NCBI GenBank assembly: GCA_046262015.1
Contig: JBHENN010000097.1
Coordinates: forward strand, 1,304 to 65,303
Source: Actinomycetota bacterium
GTDB lineage: Bacteria; Actinomycetota; CADDZG01; WHSQ01
Reading direction: 5' to 3'
Length of the DNA: 64,000 nt
Below the pieces are notes generated by a model that did not search any database, was not told the origin of the DNA, and saw only the letters and a list, made by a program, of their open reading frames with translations. Each line of letters starts with the position of its first letter. Position 1 is the first letter of the stretch. This document shows positions 13,968 to 55,010 of this stretch, in pieces. The position numbers and the translations under genes are program-made.

Positions 13968-14315
13968 ATGAACGAAGCACAGCTCAGCGTGATCCGCCGC
14001 CGTCTCGAAGAAGACCGGGCCTCGGTCCGCCTGCAGCTGCAGGAGTACGAGTCCCCGGAAGGCGGCCAGCACGTCGGAACGTCGCTCGCCGAGGGGTTCT
14101 CCGACGCCGCCGCGGCCACGACCGAGCGCTCCGAGGCGGTCGGGCACCTCGAGCAGCTCCAGACTCACCGCGACGAGGTGGAGGCGGCGCTGACCCGGCT
14201 CGACGACGGCACCTACGGCCGCTGCGAGCGATGCGGCGAGGAGATCCCCCTCGAGCGCCTCGAGGCGCTCCCCACCGCGACCCTCTGCGTCGCGTGCAAG
14301 CAGGCCGCGGGGTAA
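13968..14315 (+). CDS. TraR/DksA family C4-type zinc-finger protein
   Basis: C-terminal CERCGEEIPLERLEALPTATLCVACK follows a coiled-coil region. Confidence 0.8.
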   Translation: MNEAQLSVIRRRLEEDRASVRLQLQEYESPEGGQHVGTSLAEGFSDAAAATTERSEAVGHLEQLQTHRDEVEAALTRLDDGTYGRCERCGEEIPLERLEALPTATLCVACKQAAG

Positions 14316-14400
14316 GCCCACTGGCGCGATCGAGCCCGGAACGCGCGGGGGGTTGCCCCGCGGCGGTTCCTGCTGTAGCCTGCTCCGCCTACAAAGAGAT

Positions 14401-14411
14401 TTGTCTACAAG
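14401..14411 (+). promoter_or_regulatory. Motif copy TTGTCTACAAG, 20 nt upstream of the parA-like ATG
   Basis: Member of the ACTTGTC[G/T]ACA(AG) family (minus orientation). It is preceded by a second partial copy, CCTACAAAG. Confidence 0.5.
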
Positions 14412-14430
14412 TGGACGCAGGGGAGGGCCC

Positions 14431-15480
14431 ATGGAGCAACGCGTCGAGGCGGCCGACGGCCCCGAGGAGCGGTCCGCGACGCTCAGGTCGACCGACGCGC
14501 CGGTCCCGACCGACGATCCCGCCCTCGCCTCCGCGGACGGGGGAGCGCTGCCCACCATCCCCGGGCTGGCGACCTCGGGGGCCCACGACGGACCCGTTTC
14601 GGAGCCGGTCCCCATCGCGGTGGAGGAGCCGGCGGTGGAGGAGCGGCTCGACGCCCCCCTGCCGGAGGTCTCGTTCCCTCCCGGGCCCGACCCGGCCCGG
14701 ATCATCGCCTTCGCCAACCAGAAGGGCGGCGTCGGCAAGACCACCTCCACGATCAGTCTGGCGGCCGCCCTGGCGGAGCTGGAGCGGCGCGTCCTCGTGG
14801 TGGACTTCGACCCTCAGGGCGGCTGCTCGCTGGCTCTCGGCATCGAGCCGGGCACCCTGGACCTGTCGGTCTACAACGCGCTGCTGGACCGGGACTGCCG
14901 GCCCGAGGACGTCGTTCAGAAGACGAGCGTCCCCGGCGTCGACCTCCTGCCGTCCAACATCGACCTCGCCGCGGCCGAGCTCATGTTGGTCAACGAGGTC
15001 GCCCGGGAGCAGACCCTGATGAGGGTCCTCTCCCCTCTAAGGCTAAAGTATAACTTTATCCTTATCGACTGTCCGCCGTCCCTGGGACTGCTCACGATCA
15101 ACGCCCTCACCGCGGCCGACGGCGTCATCGTCCCGCTCGAGTGCGAGTACTACGCCTTGCGGGGCATGGGCCTCCTGATGGACTCGATCGAGCGCATCCG
15201 GGACCGCCTGAACCCCAGCCTGCATATCGACGGCATCGTCGCCACCATGTACGACGGCCGCACCCTGCACAGTCGCGAGGTCCTCGCCCGGGTACGCGAG
15301 GCGTTCGGCGGCCAGGTGTTCGACACGATGATCCGCAAGACGATCCGGTTCGCGGAAGCCCCCGTCGCGGGGGAGCCCATCCTGAGCTATGCCCCCAACT
15401 CCCCGGGGGCGATGTCCTATCGGAAACTCGCCAAGGAGGTGATGGAGCGTGTCACGTCGAGCCAGCCTTCCGGGCGCTGA
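14431..15480 (+). CDS. ParA/Soj-family ATPase with ~95 aa Pro/Ala/Glu-rich N-terminal extension (Rv1708/PldP-like position)
   Basis: Deviant Walker A (FANQKGGVGKTT). ATG at 14431 is preceded by GGGGAGGG. The gene sits between xerD and scpAB. Confidence 0.9.
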   Translation: MEQRVEAADGPEERSATLRSTDAPVPTDDPALASADGGALPTIPGLATSGAHDGPVSEPVPIAVEEPAVEERLDAPLPEVSFPPGPDPARIIAFANQKGGVGKTTSTISLAAALAELERRVLVVDFDPQGGCSLALGIEPGTLDLSVYNALLDRDCRPEDVVQKTSVPGVDLLPSNIDLAAAELMLVNEVAREQTLMRVLSPLRLKYNFILIDCPPSLGLLTINALTAADGVIVPLECEYYALRGMGLLMDSIERIRDRLNPSLHIDGIVATMYDGRTLHSREVLARVREAFGGQVFDTMIRKTIRFAEAPVAGEPILSYAPNSPGAMSYRKLAKEVMERVTSSQPSGR

Positions 15481-15814
15481 CGAGCTGTTCCGCAAGACGT
15501 CCGAGCGACCTTCGTCCGCGCGTCCGGACGATGCAGGTAGTCAAGCTAAGTCGATAAATCTACAAGTCGCCCCAGGGCCCACCCCTGACCCGGCCCCGGC
15601 CCCGCGCAAGGGCCCCAAGCACGACGAGAAGGTCACCTTCTACTGCACCGCGGACGACCTGATGGGACTCGAGCGGGCCCGGCTCCAGCTCCGCGCCGAG
15701 CACGGGATCGCAGCCGACCGCGGACGGATAGTCCGGGCCGCGCTTGCGTACGTCCTGGAGGACTTCGACGCCCGCGCCGACGACTCGATCCTCCTGAGGC
15801 GCCTCCAGAAGTAG
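15449..15814 (+). CDS. Small protein with a disordered basic N-terminus and a C-terminal ribbon-helix-helix-like domain; candidate ParG/omega-type partner of the ParA-like ATPase
   Basis: Third-position GC is very high in the C-terminal 70 codons. KVTFYCTADDLMGLERARLQLRAEHGIAADRGRIVRAALAYVLED has a strand-helix-helix pattern. The ORF overlaps the parA end by 32 nt; the start is uncertain. The RHH assignment is inference only. Confidence 0.6.
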   Translation: MSRRASLPGADELFRKTSERPSSARPDDAGSQAKSINLQVAPGPTPDPAPAPRKGPKHDEKVTFYCTADDLMGLERARLQLRAEHGIAADRGRIVRAALAYVLEDFDARADDSILLRRLQK

Positions 15815-16213
15815 GCGACCAGAGGCGTTGTAACCCTGTAGTTGAGGGTTAGTCGGTCGCGCGCGGTCCCGGGTACAGGAGCAGCCGGGAGATCGGGCGC
15901 ACACCGCGGACGCCGGCCCGCCGGCGGATACCGGGCGTGGCTCCGCGCGGACACGAGGCCCCCTGTCCCGCGAGGGCCCGGCGCCCGGTACCTGGAGCGG
16001 TTCCTCGTAGGGCAGGCAGCTCCGGTTCAGCCCCCCGATCGGGGGTGGGCTCTTCTTCCGGCGCCCGCCTGAGCCAGCCGCCGCCGGGGGATATTTATCC
16101 ACATGTCACCAAGTTGTCACCTCGATATAGGCGCTTAGCTGCTTGTCTACTCCTAACGATCGGCCTGGGTAGGGGCCCAGAACCGGCCTTCGCCTAGGGT
16201 GACTTAGTTATGT

Positions 16214-16236
16214 ATCGACATGTCTACATCGACATG
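16214..16236 (+). repeat. Direct repeat ATCGACATG x2 (14 bp period) flanking TGTCTACA in island Z1
   Basis: ATCGACATG occurs at 16214-16222 and 16228-16236. A TAGGGT hexamer lies just upstream at 16195-16200. Confidence 0.6.
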
Positions 16237-17442
16237 CCGGGGGGTCCCGAACGGCTCTGCGGCCGAGGCGGCCCCGCGCGACCACCCCTCGTGGCCGCCA
16301 GGGGCCGAGGGTCTTCAGGTGGGGTCGCCCGCGCCCTCCGGGGGCGATTCCCCGGGGCGACCTCCCCGATCGGGGACAGGGGGCCGGACCTTGCCCAGTG
16401 GCGGGCGGGTGTTCCCAGCGCACCGGTGACTGGGTGTCCCAGGCCCGCCTGGAGCGAAGAATAGAGCTTTAGGTAAGGGTTAGTCTCGGCCGCCACAGCC
16501 TCTCGGGCGAGGAGCTCCCAGGCGCAGAGCTCCCAGGTCAGCACCGCGCAGATCGCTCGAGGCGCGAGCCCCGGCGCGGATCTCCGCGGGCGGATCGGCC
16601 CGTGGGGGGTGCCAGACCGGCAGGCGACAGGCGTAGGCCGACAGGGAGCGTCCCTGCGGCGGCCGGGGAAGTGTGGGGCGGCCCGCCCCCTCAGTCCGGG
16701 CGCGCGGGGCTTCTCTACAAGTTCACTCAAACATATATCACTTTGTCGATATGTAGGCTGTGCCACCTAGGCGGGCTCCCCCAGGGCAGCCCCCACAGAC
16801 TTATCTGTTACTCTATAGGTAGACAAGTTGATATATCGCCCGAAGCCGGGATCGTCCCACCCCTGCCAGTTGACCGGGTTCCACCCCAGCGCCCCCCCTG
16901 CGGGGAGCTGCAACCGGCGGCCTGAGGGCCTAAGGCGCAGGCCACTCACTGTCGTGGCGCTTCTCGCCGACGATGTGCCGGCCGGATCTCTCGAGCCGGT
17001 TCAGTTCCGGCCCCGGTGTGGGGGCCCCGGGGGAGCGTGGCCCTCTACCCGAGGGACGGCGCCGCCGCGCCGAACCCAGCCTCACCCTTAAGTAGAGAGT
17101 TAGCTCGGGAGGACTGGGATCCGAGGTGGCGAGGGCCGCACGGGGCGGGCCGGTCCGCACCGCCGGTCGAGGCGACGCGTCGCTGCGTGGACGCTCCCCG
17201 TCGGGTGGGCCCCTCGGTGGCGGCCCCCTCGGGTCCGGCGCGGAACTATGACGAGCAGCCAGCAGGACTGAAGGAGCCCTAGCCCCGACTCCTGCCGGCG
17301 GATCCGGGCACCCAACCCGGGGATCGGCGGACGGTTCGGGGTTAAGGCCCCTACCCCGCAGGCACCCCGCCGACAGGAGCCTGCGGCTGGTCGGGTCGCG
17401 GAGGTTCGCGGATAGACTGTCTATGGATCTAGCGGCAAGACA

Positions 17443-17455
17443 CCTTGTCGACAAA
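17443..17455 (+). promoter_or_regulatory. Motif copy CCTTGTCGACAAA in island Y3
   Basis: Near-palindromic member of the motif family. It is followed by ACTTGTAC at 17459-17466 and preceded by the palindrome ATAGACTGTCTAT at 17412-17424. Confidence 0.5.
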
Positions 17456-17532
17456 TGTACTTGTACGCACGCGGCAAAGGCCCTGGCCGGCGCCCCGAGA
17501 AACCCTCGGATCGCGGGTGACTTATCGATATA

Positions 17533-18225
17533 TCAATAACCCGCCAGCCCGAGGACGCCGTCCTGCACCGCCCGGATCAGCGGGAACAGCACCGTGAAGC
17601 CTCCGAGGAACAGCAGCGCCAGCAAGATGAGGAAACCGTAGCGATCCAGGAAGAACACCACGTTCTGCTTGCTCGGCGGAAGGAAGATCGTGAGCAGCCG
17701 AGAGCCGTCCAGCGGGGGCAGCGGGATGAGGTTGAAGACCGCGAGGAGCACGTTGATGGCGAGGAAATGGGCGAGGAACTGCGCCGCCACGGGCAGCTCG
17801 AGGAGAAGGATCGGCCCCCCCTCGGGGCACGCGGGGGATCCCGCGGCGCGGCACAGCGGGACGAACAGGAAGGCCGCGACGACCGCGAGCAGGAGGTTCA
17901 TCAGGGGTCCGGCCAGGGCCACGATGGCGGCGCCGAAGCGCTTGGACGACAGCGCCTGGGGCCGGAACTCCACGGGCTTGGCCCAGCCGAACCCGACGAG
18001 CAGGATGCTGAGGGTGCCGAGGGGGTCGAGGTGCTTCGCCGGATTGAGCGTGAGGCGTCCCATCGCACGGGGGAGGCGATCGCCCTGGAGGTCGGCGGCA
18101 AGGGCGTGGGCGTACTCGTGCAGGGACAGCGCGCCGATGAGCGAGGCCGCCAGGAGGACGAAGACGAGGGGCTCTTCGCGCAGCAGCGTAAGGAGGCCTC
18201 CACCCACGGCCGGTATTGTAGCCAC
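17533..18225 (-). CDS. Site-2 protease (M50) family membrane metalloprotease
   Basis: HEYAHAL zinc motif and NLIPLPPLDG motif are present. GTG at 18225 is chosen as start; the longer ORF N-terminus (to 18357) is Arg/Pro-rich and overlaps trpS. Confidence 0.8.
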   Translation of the reverse strand: MATIPAVGGGLLTLLREEPLVFVLLAASLIGALSLHEYAHALAADLQGDRLPRAMGRLTLNPAKHLDPLGTLSILLVGFGWAKPVEFRPQALSSKRFGAAIVALAGPLMNLLLAVVAAFLFVPLCRAAGSPACPEGGPILLLELPVAAQFLAHFLAINVLLAVFNLIPLPPLDGSRLLTIFLPPSKQNVVFFLDRYGFLILLALLFLGGFTVLFPLIRAVQDGVLGLAGY

Positions 18226-18265
18226 GGCGTCACGTACCGGGGTGGGGCGGGCGAAGCGACGAACC

Positions 18266-19330
18266 GTGGAAAGGGTCGAGTTGGACTTGAAGGATGGAGC
18301 CGGGCCGCAGCGGGTCTTCAGCGGGATCAAGCCGACGGGCCAAGCGCACCTCGGCAACTACCTGGGCGCGATCCGCCACTGGGTGGCCCATCAGGAGGAG
18401 CACGAGTCGTTCTTCTGCATCGTCGACCTCCACGGGATGACGTTGCCGTGGGATCCCGCCGAGCTGCGGGAGCAGACGCTCGGCAAGGGGGCCGAGCTCC
18501 TCGCCTGCGGGATCGACCCGGAGCGCTCGGTCGTGTTCATCCAGTCACACGTCGCGGCGCATACCGAGCTCGCCTGGGTGCTGACCTGTCTGTCCCGGAT
18601 GGGGGAGCTGCGCCGGATGGTGCAGTTCAAGGAGAAGTCTAAAGGTGAGGTCGAGACCGTGGGGGTGGGGTTGTTCGCCTATCCGGTGCTCCAGGCGGCC
18701 GACGTCCTCCTCTACCAGGCCCACGGGGTCCCCGTCGGCGAGGACCAGCGCCAGCACGTCGAGCTGATGCGTACGCTCGCGACCCGCTTCAACCGGCGCT
18801 TCGGCCCCACGTTCGTCGTCCCCGAGGCCCGTGTCCCCCCGGAGGGTGCCCGGATCATGGCCCTCGACGATCCCGCTCAGAAGATGAGCAAGTCGGACGA
18901 GCGTCCCAAGGCGGCGATCCTGCTGGTCGATTCCGCCGACGCGATCGCGGCCAAGGTGCGTGCGGCGGTGACCGACTCGGGCACCGAGGTGCGGGCGGGG
19001 GCCGACAAGCCCGCTCTCACGAACCTGCTCACGATGTTCTCGCTTGTCGCAGAGGTCGCTCCCGGAGAGCTCGAGGGTCGCTACCGGGACCGTGGCTACG
19101 GCGACCTCAAGAGGGACCTCACGGCGGCGCTGGTGGAAGGTCTCCGGCCGATCCGCGAGCGCTACGAGGAGCTGATGGGCGATCCCGGTGAGCTCCGCCG
19201 GCTGCTGGCCCAGGGAGCCCTGCGAGCCGCCGAGGTCGCCGACGCCACGATGGCCGTGGTGCGCGACCGCGTCGGACTCTCCGGCCGTGCGGTCGAGGAA
19301 AGCCGCTGGAGCGGAGCGGTGCGCGGCTAG
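18266..19330 (+). CDS. trpS: Tryptophan--tRNA ligase
   Basis: RVFSGIKPTGQAHLGNYLGA (HIGH-type) and KMSKS motifs are present. Start is GTG 18266, or TTG 18281. Confidence 0.9.
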   Translation: MERVELDLKDGAGPQRVFSGIKPTGQAHLGNYLGAIRHWVAHQEEHESFFCIVDLHGMTLPWDPAELREQTLGKGAELLACGIDPERSVVFIQSHVAAHTELAWVLTCLSRMGELRRMVQFKEKSKGEVETVGVGLFAYPVLQAADVLLYQAHGVPVGEDQRQHVELMRTLATRFNRRFGPTFVVPEARVPPEGARIMALDDPAQKMSKSDERPKAAILLVDSADAIAAKVRAAVTDSGTEVRAGADKPALTNLLTMFSLVAEVAPGELEGRYRDRGYGDLKRDLTAALVEGLRPIRERYEELMGDPGELRRLLAQGALRAAEVADATMAVVRDRVGLSGRAVEESRWSGAVRG

Positions 19331-19375
19331 GCTGAGGGCGCCCGGTTGGCCGCGCCCCGGGGCGTAGGGGCGTGG

Positions 19376-19391
19376 ATGTCGACAAGTCGAT
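19376..19391 (+). promoter_or_regulatory. Motif copy ATGTCGACAAGTCGAT at the annotated scpA start
   Basis: The reverse complement shares the 15-mer ATCGACTTGTCGACA exactly with the copy at 29624-29638. Confidence 0.5.
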
Positions 19392-20188
19392 TTGGAGACG
19401 AAGTGACCTACGAGGTGAAGCTCGACGCCTTCCACGGGCCGATCGACCTGCTGCTCCACCTCATCACGCGCCAGCGCGTCGACATCTACGACATCTCACT
19501 CGCCACGATCACCGAGGAGTACCTCGCCGCGGCGGCAGAGATCGACGGGCTCGACCTGGAGCGGGCCACCGGCTTCCTGGTCGTCGCCGCGACCCTGCTG
19601 GAGCTCAAGTCGGCCCGGCTCCTCCCGGCCCCCGAGCGGGACGGGGGGGACGGCCACCTGCTCGAGGAGCGTGACCGCCTCCTGGCCCGCCTGGTGGAGT
19701 GCTCGACCTACCGTGAGGCCGGGGGATGGATCGCCGCCGCCCTCCGGGCGAGCGAGGACGTGCACGGGCGGAGCGTCTCGATGGAGCCGCCCTATCTCGA
19801 TCTCGTCCCGGATCTCCTTGCCCGGACGACGGCCGCCGACCTCGCTCGAGCCGCCGCCCGCCTCCTGGTGCCTCGTCCCGAGCCGACGCTCGACATGACG
19901 CACGTCGCCCCGATCGTGGCATCGGTTCGGGACGCCATCGTCGAGCTCGCCCAGCGCCTCCGGGGCGGCGAGGCCACGTCGTTCGAAGACCTGTGCGGCA
20001 CCTCCGAGCGGATCGAGGTGGTGGTCCGGTTCCTGGCCCTCCTGGAGCTGTTCAAGGCAGGGGCGGTGGACCTCGACCAGCGGGAGCGGTTCGGCGCGAT
20101 CGCGGTGTCGTGGACCGGCGAGGTCGACGCCCAGGAGGTCGCGCTCGAGGCCGAGGAGTACGCCGCGCTGCGAAAGGGAGCGGCGTGA
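19376..20188 (+). CDS. scpA: Segregation and condensation protein A
   Basis: FHGPIDLLLHLI motif near the N-terminus. It is followed by scpB with a GTGA overlap. The true start could be a downstream GTG. Confidence 0.85.
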   Translation: MSTSRFGDEVTYEVKLDAFHGPIDLLLHLITRQRVDIYDISLATITEEYLAAAAEIDGLDLERATGFLVVAATLLELKSARLLPAPERDGGDGHLLEERDRLLARLVECSTYREAGGWIAAALRASEDVHGRSVSMEPPYLDLVPDLLARTTAADLARAAARLLVPRPEPTLDMTHVAPIVASVRDAIVELAQRLRGGEATSFEDLCGTSERIEVVVRFLALLELFKAGAVDLDQRERFGAIAVSWTGEVDAQEVALEAEEYAALRKGAA

Positions 20189-20748: not shown

Positions 20749-21530
20749 CGGGCTCGACCGAGCCCCGGGGCGAGCGTCTCCAGAAGGTCCTGGCCCAGGC
20801 CGGGGTCGGGTCCCGTCGTCACGTCGAGGAGATGATCGAGCGGGGCCGGGTACGGGTGAACGGGCGGCGCGCCGAGCTCGGCCGCAGGATCGACCCGGAC
20901 AACGATGAAGTGGAGGTCGATGGTTCGCGCGTGCCGCTGCGGGCGGACCTGGTGTACTACCTGCTCAACAAGCCGGTCGGGGTGGTCACGACCGCGGACG
21001 ACCCCGAGGGCCGAGAGACCGTCCTCGACCTGATGGACGCTCCTACCCGGGTGTGGCCGGTGGGCCGGCTCGACATCGAGACCGAAGGGGCCCTGGTGGT
21101 CACCAACGACGGCGACCTCACGCTGCGCCTCACCCATCCCCGCTATCACGTGCCCAAGACCTACCTCGTGGAGGTCCGCGGTGGCCTCCCGGCCCGGTCC
21201 GTCAAGCTGCTGGCGCGGGGGATCGAGCTCGACGACGGCGTCACCGCGCCGGCCGAGGTGGCGGTCGTGGACCGCCGCCCCCGATCCACGCTGGTGCGGA
21301 TCACCCTGCACGAGGGCCGCTATCGCCAGGTGCGGAGGATGTTCGAGGCGCTGGACCACCCGGTCGTCCGTCTCGTCCGTACCGGCATCGGCCCCCTTAT
21401 GCTGGGGCGCTTGAAGCCGGGGACGGTCAGGCGGCTGACGGCCGACGAGGTGCGGGCCCTGTACCGCGCCGCCGGGGCGGGAACGGCCACTCGGGAGACA
21501 AGAGGATATGTCGACAAGGAAACAAGATGA
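20745..21530 (+). CDS. rluB: Pseudouridine synthase RluB family (S4 domain plus RsuA/RluB catalytic domain); start codon unresolved
   Basis: S4 domain (ERLQKVLAQAGVGSRRHVEEMI) and catalytic GRLDIETEG motif are present. No in-frame ATG/GTG/TTG was found between 20580 and the S4 domain; CTG at 20745 is the only start-like codon. Confidence 0.75.
   Translation: MTGSTEPRGERLQKVLAQAGVGSRRHVEEMIERGRVRVNGRRAELGRRIDPDNDEVEVDGSRVPLRADLVYYLLNKPVGVVTTADDPEGRETVLDLMDAPTRVWPVGRLDIETEGALVVTNDGDLTLRLTHPRYHVPKTYLVEVRGGLPARSVKLLARGIELDDGVTAPAEVAVVDRRPRSTLVRITLHEGRYRQVRRMFEALDHPVVRLVRTGIGPLMLGRLKPGTVRRLTADEVRALYRAAGAGTATRETRGYVDKETR
21508..21519 (+). promoter_or_regulatory. Motif copy ATGTCGACAAGG at the aroH start
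   Basis: The 11-mer ATGTCGACAAG is identical to the copy at 19376. Confidence 0.5.
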
Positions 21531-23008: not shown

Positions 23009-23037
23009 GGGGGAGAGAGACAACTCGATATGATGAT

Positions 23038-23049
23038 ATGTAGACAAGG
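23038..23049 (+). promoter_or_regulatory. Motif copy ATGTAGACAAGG, 7 nt upstream of the aroA GTG
   Basis: One mismatch to ATGTCGACAAGG. It is preceded by TCGATATGATGATATG, with a TATGAT -10 candidate at 23029-23034. Confidence 0.45.
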
Positions 23050-23055
23050 GGACCG

Positions 23056-27101: not shown

Positions 27102-29644
27102 CGCTTCGGGACATCCAAGCTGTGATCATGGCCGGAGGCGAGGGGTCGCGGCTTCGGCCGCTCACCAGCAACACCCCCAAACCCATGCTGCCCGTGGCCA
27201 ACCGGCCCTTGATGGAGCACATCATCACGCTGCTGGGTAGGCACGGGATCACCGACGTCGTAGCCACCGTGCAGTTCCTGTCGTCGGTGATCCGCAACTA
27301 CTTCCGCGATGGCTCCGACGTGGGGGTGTCGCTCTCGTACGCAACCGAAGAGGTCCCGCTCGGGACCGCGGGGTCCGTTTTCGGCGCCCGCGACCTCCTA
27401 TCGGGCACCTTCATCGTCATCTCCGGCGATGCGCTCACGGACCTCGACCTCGACGAGGCGGTCGACTTCCACCGCGCGAAGGGAGCGATGGCCACGCTCG
27501 TCCTCAAGCGGATGCAGGACCCGCTGGAGTTCGGGATCGTGATGACCTCCGAGGACGGCCGGATCGAGCGCTTCCTCGAGAAACCGAGCTGGGGGCAGGT
27601 CTTCACGGACACGATAAACACCGGCATCTACGTACTCGAGCCGGACGTCCTCGACCTGATCCCTCCCGACGAGGCACACGACTTCTCGTCCCAGCTCTTC
27701 CCCACGATGCTCGACAAGGGCCTGCCGCTGTACGGGTTCGTCACCGACGCCTACTGGACGGATGTGGGCACCACCGATGCGTACCTGCAGGCACACTCCG
27801 ACATCCTGGCGGGCAAGGTCACCCAGGAGATCCCCGGGTTCGAGCTGCGGCCGCGGGTCTGGGCCGGGGAAGACGTGGACGTGCACCCCACCGCCGTCAT
27901 AGAAGGTCCCGTCCTCATCGGTGACAACACCCGCATCGGCGCTGGCGCCGTCGTGGGGCCCTACGCCGTCCTGGGGCCGAACACGATCATCGGCGACGAC
28001 GCTCGGGTAGGCAATGGGAGCGTCGTGATGGACGGCAGCTACGTTGGCTCCTACGCGCGCGTGTGGGGGAGCGTGCTCGGCCGCGGTGTGACGCTCGAGA
28101 AGGGGTCCTCGGTGGAAGAGGGGGCCGTACTCGGGGACGAGGTCGTGGTGGGCGCGGGCGCGTTCATCAAGCCCCGCGTCCAGATCTATCCGGCGAGGAG
28201 CGTGGAAGCGGGCGCCATCGTCACTCAGAGTGTCGTCAAGGAGAAGCGAGCGACCCGCAACCTGTTCGGCGCGCGCGGCATGTCGGGCATGATCAACGTC
28301 GGCATCACTCCCGTCGCCGCGGTCCGCCTGGGCATGGCGTACGGAAGCACGCTAAAACGGGGCAGCGTGGTGGTGACCGGCCGCGACGCGAGCCGGGCCG
28401 CGCGCACGATCAAGCGCGCGGTCGTGGCCGGCCTCAACTCGACCGGGGTCACCTGCCACGACCTCGAGCTGGTCCCCACCCCCCTCACGCGCTTCACCGT
28501 CTCGAGCGAGCAAGCTTCCGGAGGGATCAGCGTCCGGACCTCACCGCGCGACCCCGAGATCCTCGAGATCCACCTCTTCGACGGCGACGGAGGCGACATC
28601 GCGGAGGCCGACCAGCGCAAGATCGAGCGGATGTTCTTCCGGGAGGACTACCGGCGACCCGGACCGTCCAAGCTGGGAGAGCTCGAGTTCCCCCCGCGGG
28701 CGCTGGAGCAGTACACGACCGGTCTCCTGGGCGCTCTCGACCTCGAGAGCATCCGGGCGAGCCGGTCGAAGGTGGTGGTGGATTACGCCTACGGTCCCTT
28801 CGCCACGATCGGACCCTCGATCCTCGGCAGGCTCGGCTGCGACGTGCTCTCGGTGAACGCGTTCACGGACGAGCACCGGCCCGTGCTCGTCGCCGCCGAC
28901 GTGGAGCGCCTCCTCGAGCAGCTGTCGGAGCACGTCATGAAGTCGGGCTCCGACCTGGGGGTCCTGATCGAGCCGGGAGGCGAGATCGCGCACCTCATCG
29001 ACGACCAGGGCCGGCGGGTCGAGCACGAGCGCGCCCTGGTGGCCTTCGTGCGTTACGGGTCCATGCTGGGAGCCACCGCGATCGCGCTGCCCGTCTCGGT
29101 ATCGAGCGTGTGCGAGACGGTGGCTGCGGGCAACGGAGCCCGGGTCCAGTGGGTCCCGAACACCCTGGCGGCGCTGATGGAGCGGGCGGCCCGGCCGAGC
29201 GTGGGCTTCGCCGGCAACGCCGAGGGCGCGCTGCTCTTCCCCGACTTCATGCCGGCGCCCGACGCGCTGATGACCTTCTGCAAGACGCTCGAGCTGATGG
29301 CCTCGGTGGAGCGCCCGCTCTCGATCATCGTGGACGACCTCCCCCCCGCGCACGTGGTCACGCGCGACGTCCGCACCCCGTGGGACCTCAAGGGCACGGT
29401 GATGAGAGAGCTCGCCGCGCAAGGCGCCCGGACCCCGGGGGCCGAGCTGCGCCTCCTCGACGGCGTGAAGGTCATCGAGGACGGGGCATGGACCCTGGTG
29501 ATCCCATATCCGGACCAGCCGGCGTGCCGCATCTGGGCCGAAGCGCCCACCCGGGCCGAGGCCGAGGCGCGCGCCGAGGGCCACGCCGAGCTCGTCGAGC
29601 GGATCGTGACCGCAGCCGGAAACATCGACTTGTCGACAACATGA
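27098..29644 (+). CDS. Fusion protein: sugar-1-phosphate nucleotidyltransferase (mannose-1-P guanylyltransferase-like) plus left-handed beta-helix plus phosphomannomutase/phosphoglucomutase-like domains
   Basis: The N-terminus has VIMAGGEGSRLRPLT. Hexapeptide repeats occupy the middle. The C-terminal ~450 aa have alpha-D-phosphohexomutase-like architecture. Confidence 0.8.
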   Translation: MTLRDIQAVIMAGGEGSRLRPLTSNTPKPMLPVANRPLMEHIITLLGRHGITDVVATVQFLSSVIRNYFRDGSDVGVSLSYATEEVPLGTAGSVFGARDLLSGTFIVISGDALTDLDLDEAVDFHRAKGAMATLVLKRMQDPLEFGIVMTSEDGRIERFLEKPSWGQVFTDTINTGIYVLEPDVLDLIPPDEAHDFSSQLFPTMLDKGLPLYGFVTDAYWTDVGTTDAYLQAHSDILAGKVTQEIPGFELRPRVWAGEDVDVHPTAVIEGPVLIGDNTRIGAGAVVGPYAVLGPNTIIGDDARVGNGSVVMDGSYVGSYARVWGSVLGRGVTLEKGSSVEEGAVLGDEVVVGAGAFIKPRVQIYPARSVEAGAIVTQSVVKEKRATRNLFGARGMSGMINVGITPVAAVRLGMAYGSTLKRGSVVVTGRDASRAARTIKRAVVAGLNSTGVTCHDLELVPTPLTRFTVSSEQASGGISVRTSPRDPEILEIHLFDGDGGDIAEADQRKIERMFFREDYRRPGPSKLGELEFPPRALEQYTTGLLGALDLESIRASRSKVVVDYAYGPFATIGPSILGRLGCDVLSVNAFTDEHRPVLVAADVERLLEQLSEHVMKSGSDLGVLIEPGGEIAHLIDDQGRRVEHERALVAFVRYGSMLGATAIALPVSVSSVCETVAAGNGARVQWVPNTLAALMERAARPSVGFAGNAEGALLFPDFMPAPDALMTFCKTLELMASVERPLSIIVDDLPPAHVVTRDVRTPWDLKGTVMRELAAQGARTPGAELRLLDGVKVIEDGAWTLVIPYPDQPACRIWAEAPTRAEAEARAEGHAELVERIVTAAGNIDLSTT
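29624..29640 (+). promoter_or_regulatory. Motif copy ATCGACTTGTCGACAAC spanning the stop codon of the upstream gene, 32 nt before the gcvH GTG
   Basis: It is followed by TATCGACATCGAG at 29647-29659 and an SD-like GAGAGAGGAG. Confidence 0.5.
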
Positions 29645-29671
29645 CCTATCGACATCGAGAGAGGAGCCGAG

Positions 29672-31312: not shown

Positions 31313-32449
31313 GTGAACTTGTCGACAAGGCGACTTATCGCCGCAACCCTGCTGGCTCTCTGCTGGGTCGCGCCCGCCGCCCCGGGGACCACGGCCGGCC
31401 GTCGGCCGACCCTGTCGTGTGAGGCGTGCATCGTGGTCGACGACACCGGCCGCACCCTGTTCGCCCGGCGCGCCGGCCGGCCGCTGGCCATCGCCAGCAC
31501 GACCAAGATGATGACCGCCCTGCTCGCCGACGCCGCCCTCGCCCGGGACGAGCGGGTCACCGTATCGCCGACCGCGGCCGCCACGGGGGGCGGGGGGCTC
31601 GATCTCGAGGCGGGGGAGAGCTACCCGGTGGACACCCTCCTGAAGGCGTTGCTGATGACCTCGTCGAACGACGCCGCCGTCGCGCTGGCCGAGGCGGTGG
31701 CCGGCACGGAGGCCGCGTTCGTGCGGGCGATGAACCGGCGTGCCGCGGAGCTGGGGGCGCGCGGCACGATGTTCGTGACCGCGCACGGGCTCGACCGGCC
31801 CGGGCACGTCTCCACCGCCCGCGACCTCGCACGGATCGCCGCGGAGCTGCTTTCGGACCCGGAGCTGGCGGCGATCGCGGCGGCGCCGTCCACCACCGCC
31901 GCCGGGCCGGAGGGGAGCATCCTGCTGGAGAACCGTAACCTTCTACTGGAGAGTTATCCGGGGGCGATCGGCGTCAAGACCGGGTACACCGCCGAGGCCG
32001 GCAACGTGTTGGTCGCTGCGGCCCGTCGTCACGGGCGCCGTGTGATCACCGTCGCGCTCGGGTCCGACGACTCATTCGCCGACTCCACCGCGCTTCTCGA
32101 CCTCGGGTTCGCGCGCCTCCGCCGGGGGCTGGTGCTGCGCGCCGGTCGACCGGTCGGTGCCCTGGTGTTCGCGGCGGGAGGCGCGTCCCCGATCGTGGCG
32201 GCCGAGACCGTGCGCGGCATCGTGCGGCCCGATCGGGTGGAGGTATCCGTGGCGGCCACCTCCGGCGCCGCGGCGTTGCCGCTCGCGCCCGGGGACCGCG
32301 TCGGCACGATCGTGCTGAGCACCCGCTCGGGCCGCGTCATCGCCGAGGTCGCGGCGGTCGCCGCCGCGCCGGTCGATGCGCCCTCCGGCGGGTGGCTGGC
32401 CGGCCTCCTCGGGGGTCTGCTGCGCGGCGCGTGGCAGGTAGCCGGGTGA
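31313..32449 (+). CDS. D-alanyl-D-alanine carboxypeptidase (S11 family, low-MW PBP)
   Basis: SxxK (ASTTK), SxN (SSND) and KTG (KTGYT) motifs and a signal-like N-terminus are present. Start is GTG 31313 or TTG 31319. Confidence 0.85.
   Translation: MNLSTRRLIAATLLALCWVAPAAPGTTAGRRPTLSCEACIVVDDTGRTLFARRAGRPLAIASTTKMMTALLADAALARDERVTVSPTAAATGGGGLDLEAGESYPVDTLLKALLMTSSNDAAVALAEAVAGTEAAFVRAMNRRAAELGARGTMFVTAHGLDRPGHVSTARDLARIAAELLSDPELAAIAAAPSTTAAGPEGSILLENRNLLLESYPGAIGVKTGYTAEAGNVLVAAARRHGRRVITVALGSDDSFADSTALLDLGFARLRRGLVLRAGRPVGALVFAAGGASPIVAAETVRGIVRPDRVEVSVAATSGAAALPLAPGDRVGTIVLSTRSGRVIAEVAAVAAAPVDAPSGGWLAGLLGGLLRGAWQVAG
31318..31329 (+). promoter_or_regulatory. Perfect 12-bp palindrome CTTGTCGACAAG at the start of the dacB-like gene
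   Basis: It is seen directly in the sequence and is followed by GCGACTTATCG (Z-island-like GACTTATCG). Confidence 0.55.
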
Positions 32450-33643: not shown

Positions 33644-33683
33644 GACGATAGCCGCCGCCTGTGGATAACCCCGCGAGGCGTCG

Positions 33684-50602: not shown

Positions 50603-50767
50603 GGCTACGTGCTACCACGACCCAGGCAGGCGACGCGACCCAGGCAAGGAAGGCCGGCGCGCCGGGGGATCGTCTCGAACTGGTCGGGGACCATCTCTTG
50701 GGCCTAGCTTTACATAATCGATATTATGGGAGATAGCTCCGGGCTGCGATCTGCCCGGAAGAGCTCG

Positions 50768-54689: not shown

Positions 54690-55010
54690 CGGTCCGCTAA
54701 CCCTATGCCCCGGCCTCCGCACCGCAAACGCGCCGAGGGCGGGCGTCGACGCCGGACGAAAGGCACGAACGACGACAGAAAGGGAGACCCGAGGGCCACC
54801 GGGGGCCGCTCCTTAGCCGGCGAGCCGGTTATCGGAACGTTGTCCCGGGGCCTCTCGGGTCTGCCAAGACAAGTCCCAAGCAACCTCGTGCTGCTGCACC
54901 CTTCGAACGGGCCGGCACCACAGACCCGAAGGTCCGTCGAACCGTCCGGCTCCTTGCGCGATCTGCTCGGAGACCGAGCACACCGCACAGTCTGCCGGCG
55001 AAGTCGGGCA

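What the first reader, a model, noticed from the sequence alone, without database searches (positions are those of the whole stretch)
15815..17532. 1.7 kb gene-free, GC-rich interval built from three ~600-630 bp units that share only their AT-rich islands
Elsewhere in this window genes abut or overlap, yet 1718 bp here have no credible ORF. Every ORF in the track for this interval is Arg/Pro/Gly-rich. My hand counts of third-position GC give roughly 75-80% in all three frames, against about 86% for the ald stretch I counted. The interval has a clear periodic architecture. Island X (GAGGGTTAGTC 15844, AAGGGTTAGTC 16475, GAGAGTTAGC 17095) is followed by ~230-300 bp of GC-rich sequence. Then comes island Y (16091-16160, 16711-16760, 17411-17470), which carries CTTGTC[G/T]AC and TCGATAT elements. 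Y is followed by a short GC hairpin (e.g. CTGGG-TAGGGG-CCCAG, CCGAG-AAACC-CTCGG) and then island Z, beginning GACTTA (16201, 16798, 17519). Finally ~220-250 bp of GC-rich sequence lead to the next X. The GC-rich segments show no obvious mutual sequence similarity, so selection seems to act on the islands and/or on RNA structure. X resembles the TAGGGTTAGC element upstream of the DUF4193 gene (54696-54705, minus strand). Z1 contains a canonical TAGGGT (16195). I see three hypotheses. (a) It is a centromere-like loading region for the adjacent ParA/RHH pair. (b) It is three tandem promoter plus structured-ncRNA units. (c) It is a decayed tandem triplication. I cannot match it to any described RNA or repeat family.
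Basis: partly seen in the sequence, partly recalled or inferred. Interest (0 to 1): 0.8.

Follow-up and report, generated by a model that had tools for sequence, protein, structure and literature searches.

The report
Binding-site arrays beside a chromosomal ParA operon
The 1.7 kb gene-free stretch is three duplicated modules of short AT-rich protein-binding repeats (core TTGTCGACAA, 8-bp phase) separated by apparently unconstrained GC-rich filler. It most likely acts as a centromere-like landing pad for the neighbouring ParA ATPase and its small, previously unrecognised partner protein.

Summary

The Y and Z islands are arrays of an iteron, TC[G/T]AC every 8 bp, with palindromic form TTGTCGACAA. 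The same motif occurs:
- just upstream of parA;
- inside the small gene 15449-15814, where it forces rare codons;
- at five further intergenic spots up to 31.3 kb.

About 40 related loci carry it at the same syntenic places. High-GC actinobacterial loci that lack the small gene have none. More distant relatives carry the palindrome only upstream of parA and just after the small gene.

The GC-rich spacers show no conservation, no RNA-family match and no excess folding energy. The number of array pairs grows with gap length (0 to 4). One relative (L015) preserves an 82%-identical tandem duplication that includes a frameshifted copy of the small gene's 3' part.

Best reading: a chromosomal, type-Ib-like partition or operator module, built from a PldP/ParA2-type ParA, a ribbon-helix-helix-like adaptor and iterons, and enlarged by tandem duplication. 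Who binds the iterons is inferred, not shown. I classify it as a new variant of a known kind.

The parts
14389..14416 (.). Iteron site (CTACAAAGAGATTTGTCTACAAGTGGAC), 15-40 bp upstream of the parA start codon. Putative operator.
   Evidence: PWM 21.6 bits at 14398. Sequence and the ATG at 14431 with a GGGGAGGG RBS. Relatives have a site at the same place, as do distant family members L163, L165 and L166.
14431..15480 (+). parA. A Walker-type ParA ATPase, syntenic with the 'second' actinobacterial ParA (PldP/ParA2) in the xerD-parA-scpA cluster.
   Evidence: Pfam AAA_31 2.8e-59 and CbiA. NCBIfam ParA_partition, below cutoff. Synteny xerD-parA-scpA in Micrococcales and in Friedmanniella. The start was chosen from the sequence.
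15449..15814 (+). Small gene (121 aa) overlapping the parA stop by 32 nt. It has an invariant N-terminal peptide VSRRASLPGA[DE]ELFR, a disordered linker and a C-terminal strand-helix-helix domain (KVTFYCT plus two helices). Candidate ParA adaptor and iteron-binding protein.
   Evidence: Family of 6887 'hypothetical' proteins with no Pfam domain. 574 clusters at 50% identity. AF2 model of the C-domain has pLDDT 82.8. The best PDB TM-score is to the RHH centromere-binding ParB of pCXC100, 3no7 (TM 0.57/0.65, E 4.7, not significant). One family member gives a weak RHH_3 hit, E 0.0046. ParA lies immediately upstream in every context retrieved starting from the small protein.
15540..15575 (.). Iteron array inside the small gene's linker-coding region (CTAAGTCGATAAATCTACAAGTCGCC).
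   Evidence: PWM 23.4 and 17.4 bits. Across 37 relatives the synonymous sites are fixed to the motif: Thr ACA 31/33 against 3.4% in parA, Leu CTA 26/37 against 4%, Gln CAA 31/37 against 18%, Val GTA 12/35 against 3.6%.
15829..15854 (.). Island X1. Partial palindrome GTAACCCT-GTAGTTG-AGGGTTAG, just after the small gene's stop. Function unknown.
   Evidence: Sequence. 84% identical to X2 over 19 nt (D13). Loosely similar islands after the stop codon in relatives.
15855..16087 (.). GC-rich spacer 1 (79% GC).
   Evidence: No periodicity. MFE z +0.30/-0.60. No similarity to the other spacers or to relatives.
16088..16155 (.). Island Y1. Iteron array that includes a perfect TTATCCACA and CTTGTCTAC.
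   Evidence: PWM 22.7 bits at 16092 and 13.6 at 16140.
16166..16181 (.). Short GC hairpin CTGGG-TAGGGG-CCCAG between Y1 and Z1.
   Evidence: Sequence. Not tested further.
16195..16240 (.). Island Z1. Iteron array GGGTGACTTAGTTATGTATCGACATGTCTACATCGACATG.
   Evidence: PWM 19.8, 16.7 and 12.4 bits at 16209-16223.
16241..16459 (.). GC-rich spacer 2 (Z1 to X2). It has the same length as the small gene's 3' part and may be a copy decayed beyond recognition.
   Evidence: Geometry: in-gene array to X1 is 299 bp, Z1 to X2 is 274 bp, Z2 to X3 is 297 bp. No remnant detectable by tblastn or nhmmer. z -0.75/-0.42.
16460..16485 (.). Island X2 (AATAGAGCTTTAGGTAAGGGTTAGTC).
   Evidence: D13.
16486..16707 (.). 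GC-rich spacer 3.
   Evidence: z +0.74/-1.32.
16708..16756 (.). Island Y2. Iteron array (CTCTACAAGTTCACTCAAACATATATCACTTTGTCGATATGTAG).
   Evidence: PWM 11.0, 11.2 and 20.3 bits. Inverted-repeat partner of Z2 (I7).
16798..16840 (.). Island Z2. Iteron array (GACTTATCTGTTACTCTATAGGTAGACAAGTTGATATATCG).
   Evidence: PWM 12.9, 19.6 and 21.6 bits.
16841..17082 (.). GC-rich spacer 4 (Z2 to X3).
   Evidence: z +0.18/-0.30.
17083..17104 (.). Island X3 (CACCCTTAAGTAGAGAGTTAGC).
17105..17419 (.). GC-rich spacer 5.
   Evidence: z +0.53/+0.17.
17420..17466 (.). Island Y3, with a perfect palindrome CCTTGTCGACAAATG.
   Evidence: PWM 18.9 bits. Exact TTGTCGACAA.
17495..17509 (.). GC hairpin CCGAG-AAACC-CTCGG between Y3 and Z3.
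17515..17545 (.). Island Z3 (GGGTGACTTATCGATATATCAATAACCC). It overlaps the last four codons and the stop of the M50 gene.
   Evidence: PWM 24.9 and 14.3 bits. Stop codon at 17533-17535.
17533..18357 (-). M50-family membrane metalloprotease gene, convergent with the small gene. It bounds the gap.
   Evidence: Pfam Peptidase_M50 5.2e-16. Syntenic in relatives.
19373..19396 (.). Outlying iteron site at the trpS/tyrS-scpA junction.
   Evidence: PWM 16.9 bits. Same position in relatives.
21497..21520 (.). Outlying iteron site at the rluB end and aroH start.
   Evidence: PWM 22.7 bits. Gene identities. Same position in relatives.
23019..23050 (.). Outlying iteron array between tyrA and aroA.
   Evidence: PWM 20.7 bits. 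Relatives.
29619..29658 (.). Outlying iteron array upstream of gcvH.
   Evidence: PWM 16.7 and 15.5 bits. Exact TTGTCGACAA.
31316..31340 (.). Outlying iteron site downstream of ftsR.
   Evidence: PWM 19.7 bits. Exact TTGTCGACAA.

Best explanation
The interval is a modular array of protein-binding sites.

Shown: each module holds a pair of AT-rich iteron arrays (Y and Z). The arrays are TC[G/T]AC cores phased every 8 bp, with palindromic form TTGTCGACAA, and they are kept by selection. The X islands and the roughly 230-310 bp GC-rich stretches between islands are the remainder of each module. The GC-rich stretches evolve without detectable constraint.

Shown in a relative, inferred for this window: the modules arose by tandem duplication. 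The endpoints lay in iteron arrays, namely the in-gene array and a downstream array. Each round copied the small gene's 3' part plus its downstream sites. The gene copy then decayed while the sites were retained.

Inferred function: the iterons are the cis sites of the adjacent two-gene operon, which encodes a PldP/ParA2-type ParA and a 121-aa protein. That protein has a flexible N-terminal tail, with an invariant Arg-rich peptide that would contact ParA, and a C-terminal ribbon-helix-helix-like domain. Dimers of the small protein would bind the phased repeats cooperatively, as in type Ib partition systems.

On this reading the site just upstream of parA serves as an autoregulatory operator. 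The in-gene and downstream arrays, and in this lineage further sites over about 17 kb, would form a centromere-like nucleoprotein complex. That complex would recruit and stimulate ParA on this part of the chromosome.
For: Non-coding status, and islands far above chance.

The motif and its 8-bp phase come from 100 instances in 13 loci and from k-mer enrichment (GATAAGT 34x, TTGTCTA 17x).

DNA-level selection: rare A-ending codons are fixed in the in-gene array across 37 relatives.

Conserved placement: sites lie upstream of parA, in the small gene, in the gap and upstream of scpA in about 12 examined relatives, including those with no gap. The 10 kb upstream of parA has essentially none.

Co-occurrence: every locus with the small gene has 2-16 strong hits. 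All high-GC loci without it have 0.

More distant members (L163, L165, L166) have the palindrome only 20-40 bp upstream of the parA start and 2-3 times between the small gene and M50. It occurs nowhere else in 10-14 kb. That is the layout of a partition cassette.

Small protein:
- The gene overlaps parA by 32 nt and has its own RBS.
- The first 17 residues are invariant and the linker is disordered.
- The C-domain model has pLDDT 82.8 with two long helices after KVTFYCT.
- The best TM-score in the PDB is the RHH centromere-binding ParB of the actinobacterial plasmid pCXC100. That protein also has a long flexible N-tail, an 18-residue helix 1, and binds unspaced direct repeats cooperatively (PMC3074162).
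- One family member gives a weak RHH_3 hit.

Spacers look neutral.

Duplication origin.
Against: - No experiment links the small protein, or any protein, to the iterons.
- The RHH assignment is not significant by Foldseek (E 4.7), by PDB profile search or by Pfam.
- The predicted DNA-facing strand residues (K, T, Y) are the same in the Friedmanniella homologue, yet that locus shows no iterons within 10 kb either side.
- Co-occurrence cannot separate the small protein from other lineage-specific neighbours, namely the DksA/TraR-like gene and the M50 gene.
- Several relatives have no gap arrays at all, so the arrays in this interval are dispensable.
- The outlying sites sit just upstream of start codons, which would also suit a plain transcription factor.
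- The X islands and the hairpins between Y and Z are unexplained.
Confidence: 0.55

Rival explanations
1. The iterons are operators of an ordinary transcription factor, either the small protein or another lineage-specific regulator. That factor controls parA-small, scpAB, aroH, aroA, gcvH and other genes. The gap arrays would be a duplicated decoy or titration region, or simply tolerated duplicates, with no role in DNA positioning.
For: Outlying sites lie 0-50 bp upstream of start codons. Some relatives lack gap arrays altogether. RHH proteins are commonly repressors (established knowledge).
Against: The genes next to the sites have unrelated functions. Sites are confined to about 17 kb next to the operon, with none in 1-12.6 kb and only two weak hits beyond 32 kb. 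In distant relatives only the operon's own flanks carry sites. Arrays between two convergent genes, and inside a coding region, are not promoter positions. The partner gene is a ParA.
Confidence: 0.2
2. The iterons are bound by a different protein, and the adjacency to parA-small is incidental. Candidates are a nucleoid-associated protein that prefers AT-rich DNA (Lsr2-like), DnaA (TTGTCGACA is one mismatch from the actinobacterial DnaA box TTGTCCACA), or XerD (the Frankia dif arm ends in GTCAAGT).
For: One perfect TTATCCACA lies in Y1, and the core is one mismatch from TTGTCCACA. The window may be terminus-proximal and xerD is two genes upstream. AT-rich islands in a 70% GC genome are typical NAP targets (established knowledge).
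Against: Position 6 of the box is C in only 12 of 100 instances. The palindromic and 8-bp tandem arrangement is not how DnaA boxes or dif arms are organised. DnaA, XerD and Lsr2 are present across Actinobacteria, yet the motif is absent from all high-GC loci lacking the small gene. Conservation is sequence-specific, including synonymous sites, which argues against a composition-driven NAP. The flanking genes converge on the gap, and no dnaA or dnaN was noticed near it.
Confidence: 0.12
3. Three tandem promoter plus structured-ncRNA units: the islands are promoters or terminators, and the GC-rich segments are functional RNAs.
For: GC-rich non-coding DNA folds stably in absolute terms (MFE about -115 to -167 kcal/mol). 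TANNNT-like hexamers such as TAGGGT occur in some islands.
Against: No Rfam family matches, even at E up to 10. MFE z-scores are -1.3 to +0.7 on both strands. The spacers share no similarity with one another or with any relative. In the L019/L094 pair, spacer identity falls to 54-68% while the flanking genes are 94-96% identical. No sigma-70-like promoters or intrinsic terminators exceed the shuffle expectation.
Confidence: 0.05
4. The whole interval, islands included, is functionless debris of past duplications.
For: L015 shows the duplication process, with a frameshifted gene copy. Relatives without a gap are evidently viable.
Against: The islands keep the motif while the DNA between them has lost all similarity. 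Islands are better conserved than spacers between L019 and L094, with motif-preserving substitutions. The number of arrays scales regularly with gap length across lineages.
Confidence: 0.06

Closest known systems
Type Ib plasmid partition systems. Examples are ParA/ParB of pCXC100 from Leifsonia xyli, ParF/ParG-parH of TP228 and delta/omega of pSM19035.
   Same: - A small Walker ParA with no N-terminal HTH.
- A small partner gene immediately downstream, with a flexible N-tail and a C-terminal strand-helix-helix domain.
- Cis sites made of short, contiguous, phased repeats (9 bp unspaced in pCXC100, PMC3074162; 8 bp here).
- A site upstream of the operon, in operator position.
   Different: - It is chromosomal. 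It is embedded in the conserved actinobacterial xerD-parA-scpAB cluster, and its ParA is the orthologue, by synteny, of the 'orphan' ParA2/PldP.
- Its main arrays lie downstream of the operon and inside the partner gene, not upstream.
- Further sites are scattered over about 17 kb.
- There is no detectable sequence homology of the partner to ParG, omega or pCXC100 ParB.
- Binding and ATPase stimulation are untested.
Chromosomal ParABS (ParA/Soj, ParB/Spo0J, parS).
   Same: It is a chromosomal ParA with several dispersed cis sites in a limited region, one of them inside the gene for the presumed DNA-binding partner. From my own knowledge, one B. subtilis parS lies within spo0J. The N-terminal basic peptide of the partner is reminiscent of the ParA-stimulating N-terminus of ParB; this is recalled from memory and was not tested.
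   Different: The partner is 121 aa and has no ParB/CTPase or HTH domain. No parS-like sequence occurs in the window. The sites are tandem 8-bp iterons rather than single 16-bp palindromes.
PldP (Cg1610) / ParA2 (SCO1772) / Rv1708, the second ParA of Actinobacteria.
   Same: The gene position between xerD and scpA is the same. Identity to Micrococcales orthologues is 55-62%.
   Different: PldP is described as an orphan whose partner 'has yet to be identified' (bioRxiv 10.1101/2025.07.02.662783). Here, and in Friedmanniella, a translationally coupled small gene follows it. The Micrococcales loci examined have no room for such a gene.
MetJ and met boxes, and other RHH repressors that bind tandem 8-bp boxes.
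   Same: Tandem 8-bp repeats with a palindromic core could each be bound by one RHH dimer with cooperativity (established knowledge).
   Different: There is no sequence relationship. The genomic context here is a ParA operon rather than a metabolic regulon.

Membership tests
Type Ib partition system | Walker-type (deviant Walker A) ParA without an N-terminal HTH domain | tested here: met
   AAA_31 2.8e-59 and CbiA 2.5e-24. The roughly 75-residue N-extension is low-complexity with no domain hit.
Type Ib partition system | Small centromere-binding-protein gene directly downstream of parA in one operon | tested here: met
   15449-15814 overlaps the parA stop by 32 nt, with AAGGAGG 9 nt upstream of its GTG. 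The arrangement is the same in all relatives and in contexts retrieved from the small protein.
Type Ib partition system | The partner has a dimeric ribbon-helix-helix DNA-binding domain preceded by a flexible tail | tested here: inconclusive
   The tail is disordered in AF2. The C-domain model has pLDDT 82.8 and two helices, but no strand is called in the monomer. The top TM-score is to RHH ParB 3no7, but E is 4.7. RHH_3 scores E 0.0046, below cutoff, for one family member only. The PDB profile search found nothing.
Type Ib partition system | Centromere made of multiple short direct or inverted repeats next to the operon | tested here: met
   8-bp phased TC[G/T]AC iterons lie upstream, inside and downstream of the operon.
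Type Ib partition system | The partner binds the repeats, represses the operon and stimulates the ParA ATPase | not testable with these tools
   Needs EMSA or footprinting, reporter assays and ATPase assays.
Type Ib partition system | Carried by the replicon it stabilises (typically a low-copy plasmid) | tested here: not met
   The synteny is chromosomal: xerD-dksA-like-parA-small-...-scpA-scpB-rluB-aroH-tyrA-aroA-cmk-der. There is no match in the plasmid collection.
Chromosomal ParABS | ParB with a ParB/Srx N-domain and HTH, and a parS palindrome TGTTNCACGTGAAACA | tested here: not met
   The small protein has no Pfam domain. No parS occurs within 3 mismatches in the window.
Described structured RNA (Rfam) | Match to a covariance model, or evidence of conserved structure | tested here: not met
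   No Rfam hit reaches gathering threshold. The best E-values in the interval are about 5. MFE z-scores are near 0. No conservation.
oriC / DnaA-box cluster | Multiple DnaA boxes TT[A/G]TCCACA, usually next to dnaA/dnaN, with divergent gene orientation and a skew minimum | tested here: not met
   The gap holds one perfect box. Position 6 is G or T in 78 of 100 iterons. The flanking genes converge. There is no window-scale skew switch at the gap.
Tandem repeat / MITE / REP family | Copies alignable to each other along their length | tested here: not met
   Only the short islands match between units.

The most novel reading that the evidence does not exclude
The 'orphan' second ParA of Actinobacteria (PldP/ParA2) is not an orphan in many lineages. 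It would work with a previously unrecognised small RHH-type adaptor, a family of at least 574 clusters at 50% identity that is always encoded directly after it, and with dedicated chromosomal iteron arrays. Together these would form a second, ParB-independent, type-Ib-like positioning system on the chromosome. It sits beside scpAB, and in this window about 35 kb from a dif-like site. It might mark or position a terminus-proximal domain, or couple it to condensin or to the division site. The arrays expand and contract by duplication between iteron blocks.
Probability: 0.3. Interest if true: 0.8.

Novelty: new variant of a known kind. Interest (0 to 1): 0.62.

Why it matters
A 2025 preprint states that the cargo and partner of PldP, the second ParA of Actinobacteria, are still unidentified.

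This locus gives a concrete, testable candidate for both. The candidate partner is a conserved small protein translationally coupled to that ParA. The candidate cargo site is a well-defined DNA motif, TTGTCGACAA in 8-bp phased arrays, that flanks the operon. Homologues of the small protein exist in cultivable genera (Friedmanniella, Microlunatus), so biochemistry is feasible.

The interval also illustrates three general points:
- Binding-site arrays can grow by tandem duplication.
- In a high-GC genome, selected sites stand out as AT-rich islands in GC-rich filler that shows no detectable constraint.
- A DNA motif can dictate the peptide sequence of a disordered linker.

Tried and rejected
- Rfam at gathering and permissive thresholds found nothing.
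- The plasmid collection (blastn, distant mode) gave no match.
- I searched the gap for remnants of the small gene with tblastn and with an nhmmer DNA profile. Only the iteron block matched weakly, while the positive control in L015 scored E 1e-69.
- A MAFFT alignment of the three units gave no alignment better than expected for 75-80% GC sequence.
- blastn of the gap against 80 loci found only iteron-sized matches.
- A metagenome scan for closer relatives found none above about 82% ParA identity. The window's own small protein is not in the gene-position index. Fine-scale phylogenetic footprinting and covariation analysis were therefore not possible.
- The sigma-70 promoter and intrinsic-terminator scan gave nothing above shuffle expectation.
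- Full-length AF2 plus Foldseek was uninformative (pLDDT 60).
- PDB profile search and Pfam on 34 family members found no RHH.
- The strict palindrome TAACC-N11-GGTTA as a definition of X fits only some relatives. GGTTAG elsewhere in the window looks coincidental.
- I considered a DnaA-box cluster or origin, a dif/XerD arm and a MITE, and rejected all three.
- Friedmanniella luteola has the small gene but no detectable iterons or other local repeats.
- Cluster look-ups to name the taxa of distant family members returned no names.
- 'orf304' on the minus strand, which I first used as a synteny marker, is a spurious antisense ORF of a TrpS/TyrS gene.
Full report
**1. The observation**

The window is 70% GC. 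Between the stop of a small plus-strand gene (15814) and the stop of a minus-strand M50 peptidase gene (17533) lie 1718 bp without codon periodicity. In 150-nt windows the GC difference between the three codon positions stays at or below 0.22 from 15800 to 17450. It is 0.4-0.6 in parA, the small gene and the M50 gene.

The AT-rich islands recur three times with spacings of about 600-720 bp. The GC-rich segments between them (74-79% GC) have no similarity to each other.

**2. What the islands are**

The Y and Z islands share a short motif with an AT-rich patch inside the small gene (15523-15574) and with several other AT-rich patches in the window. I took 100 instances from the window and 12 related loci. 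They give the pattern GACTT[G/A]TC[G/T]AC[W][W][R]TC, which is a TC[G/T]AC core every 8 bp joined by A/T-rich triplets. Head-to-head it reads as the palindrome TTGTCGACAA. Head-to-tail it reads as CGACAAGT repeats, for example in L005: CGACAAGCCGACAAGTCGACAAATCTACAAGT.

- 7-mers of the motif are 5- to 34-fold enriched in the gaps relative to 372 kb of flanking DNA.
- A weight matrix finds 48 hits of at least 10 bits in the window, against 3-10 in Markov simulations.
- Exact TTGTCKACAA occurs 7 times against 0.05 expected.
- 26 of the 48 hits lie in 15545-17542.
- The rest lie at 14398 (15-40 bp upstream of the parA ATG at 14431), 19373 (before scpA), 21497 (rluB end and aroH start), 23019 (before aroA), 29619 (before gcvH) and 31316 (after ftsR).
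- Only two weak hits lie beyond 32 kb, and none lie in 1-12.6 kb.

**3. Relatives**

A genome scan with the ParA found 23 species-level relatives, all uncultured Actinomycetota, at 69-81% ParA identity. A metagenome scan added about 20 more. All keep the order xerD, (DksA/TraR-like gene), parA, small gene, [gap], M50(-), TrpS/TyrS, scpA, scpB, rluB.

Gap lengths are about 4-90 bp in seven loci and 192 bp in one. Others fall in the ranges 340-433, 633-1027, 1236-1479 and 2796 bp. A sub-clade has real genes inserted. The number of iteron-array pairs follows the length:
- none below 210 bp;
- one pair at 340-770 bp;
- two at 850-1500 bp;
- three in this window;
- four in L015.

The motif clusters occupy the same syntenic places in the roughly 12 relatives examined: upstream of parA, in the small gene, in the gap, before scpA, after rluB and about 1.5 kb further on. 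This includes relatives with no gap. The 10 kb upstream of parA is essentially free of them.

Every locus with the small gene has 2-16 hits of at least 16 bits. All high-GC loci without it (Micrococcales, Solirubrobacterales and others) have zero.

**4. Selection acts on DNA**

In the small gene the array encodes the linker peptide KST[K/N]LQVA. Across 37 relatives the synonymous positions are fixed to the motif, compared with codon usage in parA of the same loci:
- Thr ACA 31/33 against 3.4%;
- Leu CTA 26/37 against 4%;
- Gln CAA 31/37 against 18%;
- Val GTA 12/35 against 3.6%.

More distant family members lack this peptide and the in-gene array. So the DNA element dictates the peptide, not the reverse.

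**5. The spacers**

- No Rfam family matches, even permissively.
- Minimum-free-energy z-scores of the five spacers against dinucleotide shuffles are -1.3 to +0.7 on both strands, no different from coding controls.
- The spacers have no similarity to any relative.
- In the one informative pair (L019/L094, flanking genes 94-96% identical) the gap is 54-88% identical. The islands are conserved, often through motif-preserving substitutions such as TCTAC to TCGAC. The main spacer drops to 54-68%.

The GC-rich segments therefore behave as unconstrained DNA drifting to the genome's high GC, and the AT-rich islands are what selection holds. The ncRNA hypothesis has no support.

**6. Origin**

L015 contains a tandem duplication of about 920 bp at 82% identity. 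Its left boundary is the in-gene iteron array. It includes a copy of the small gene's 3' two-thirds that is now frameshifted.

In the window the geometry is the same three times:
- in-gene array to X1, 299 bp;
- Z1 to X2, 274 bp;
- Z2 to X3, 297 bp.

The Z-to-X segments are thus plausibly older copies of the gene's 3' part, although no remnant is detectable.

**7. Who uses the sites**

The ParA is, by synteny, the 'second' ParA of Actinobacteria. In cultured Micrococcales the order is xerD-parA-scpA with no gene between parA and scpA. This protein is PldP in Corynebacterium and ParA2/SCO1772 in Streptomyces (PMC4255298). Its partner is reported as still unidentified (bioRxiv 10.1101/2025.07.02.662783).

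Here it is followed by a 121-aa gene that overlaps it by 32 nt. The product belongs to a large unannotated family:
- 6887 hits, none with a Pfam domain;
- 574 clusters at 50% identity;
- homologues in Friedmanniella and Microlunatus;
- in F. luteola the order is parA-small-scpA-scpB with overlapping stops and starts.

The protein has three parts. The N-terminal 17 residues are invariant (VSRRASLPGA[DE]ELFR.T). The linker is variable and disordered. The C-terminal domain reads HDEK[V/I]T[F/V]Y followed by two helices.

The C-domain model (pLDDT 82.8) has as its best TM-score in the PDB the ribbon-helix-helix centromere-binding ParB of the actinobacterial plasmid pCXC100 (3no7; TM 0.57/0.65). 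Foldseek's E-value, 4.7, is not significant. That protein also has a long flexible tail and an 18-residue first helix. [quoted passage not shown] One family member gives a sub-threshold RHH_3 hit. The RHH assignment is therefore suggestive, not established.

The most telling evidence comes from three more distant members that keep the KVTFYCT strand (L163, L165, L166). In each, TTGTC[G/T]ACAA palindromes occur only 20-40 bp upstream of the parA start and 2-3 times between the small gene and M50. They occur nowhere else in 10-14 kb. Sites that flank just this operon are what a partition cassette, with an operator and a centromere, looks like.

**8. Caveats**

- Binding is inferred.
- The Friedmanniella homologue has the same predicted DNA-facing residues but no iterons nearby.
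- Other lineage-specific neighbours (the DksA/TraR-like gene and the M50 gene) co-occur with the motif just as well.
- The outlying sites sit close to start codons, which suits a plain repressor.
- Some relatives do without gap arrays.
- The core is one mismatch from the actinobacterial DnaA box. However, C at the critical position is found in only 12% of instances, and the arrangement is unlike DnaA boxes.
- The X islands (partial palindrome TAACCCT-N7-AGGGTTA in X1, loosely conserved) and the GC hairpins between Y and Z remain unexplained.

**9. Verdict**

The finding is real and non-trivial. It is best described as a chromosomal, type-Ib-like ParA/small-adaptor/iteron module whose downstream site array has been tripled by tandem duplication. 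It is not a member of any described RNA or repeat family. It fails the 'plasmid-borne' feature of type Ib systems and lacks ParB and parS. I classify it as a new variant of a known kind. It has added interest because it nominates a partner and a DNA target for the hitherto orphan ParA2/PldP.

Noticed in passing
window 50708-50735: There is a dif-like sequence, GCTTTACATAATCGATATTATGGGAGAT, with a CATAA-N6-TTATG core; 15 of 22 arm positions match E. coli dif. It lies in an intergenic AT island. Confident genes are almost all on the + strand up to about 48 kb and mostly on the - strand from about 50 kb. The window may span the replication terminus, about 35 kb from the parA locus. For comparison, the predicted Frankia dif is CACGCCGATAATGCACATTATGTCAAGT (PMC3025954).
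   Followed up: partly
window 15036-15075 (inside parA): The parA coding sequence has an AT-rich patch, CCTCTAAGGCTAAAGTATAACTTTATCCTTATCGACTG, that uses rare codons (CTA, AGG, CTT, TTT). The same codons are kept in 12 of 19 relatives (CCCCTAAGGGTCAAGTACGACTTTATCCTTATCGA). It looks like an X-type island plus one iteron embedded in a CDS. It may be an internal promoter or a further binding site.
   Followed up: partly
window 18329-19330 (+) versus 18545-19459 (-): The 304-aa minus-strand ORF is a spurious antisense ORF. The real gene is a class-Ib aminoacyl-tRNA synthetase (TrpS/TyrS; PF00579, E 6.5e-65) on the + strand. M50 is therefore the only minus-strand gene between xerD and about 46 kb.
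   Followed up: yes
window 13968-14315 (+): A DksA/TraR-type zinc-finger protein gene sits between xerD and the parA operator. The same gene is present in relatives that carry the iterons (L161, L163, L165, L166). It is absent in Friedmanniella (L162) and in L167.
   Followed up: partly
L015 2940-3862: This is a tandem duplicate (82% identity) of the small gene's 3' part plus its downstream 616 bp. The gene copy is frameshifted. The duplication boundary lies in the iteron array.
   Followed up: yes
L013, L016, L069, L091, L092 (gap between small gene and M50): In this sub-clade the gap (1.6-3.3 kb) shows codon periodicity and is 80-92% conserved among the members. Protein-coding genes of unknown identity have been inserted there.
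   Followed up: no
L162 (Friedmanniella luteola LT629749.1, 1487352-1507702): A homologue of the small protein lies between parA and scpA, with overlapping stop and start codons on both sides (parA-small-scpA-scpB). No iterons occur within 10 kb either side. tatA and tatC lie 9.5 kb downstream, which is of interest given the reported PldP-TatA link.
   Followed up: partly
L004 and L161 (contig coordinates): The locus sits at 0.51 of a 3.15 Mb contig and at 0.53 of a 2.48 Mb contig. If these contigs start near oriC, that fits a terminus-proximal position. In F. luteola it sits at 0.32.
   Followed up: no
window 16095-16103 and 33660-33668: These are the only two perfect E. coli-type DnaA boxes (TTATCCACA) in the window. 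The first lies in island Y1.
   Followed up: partly
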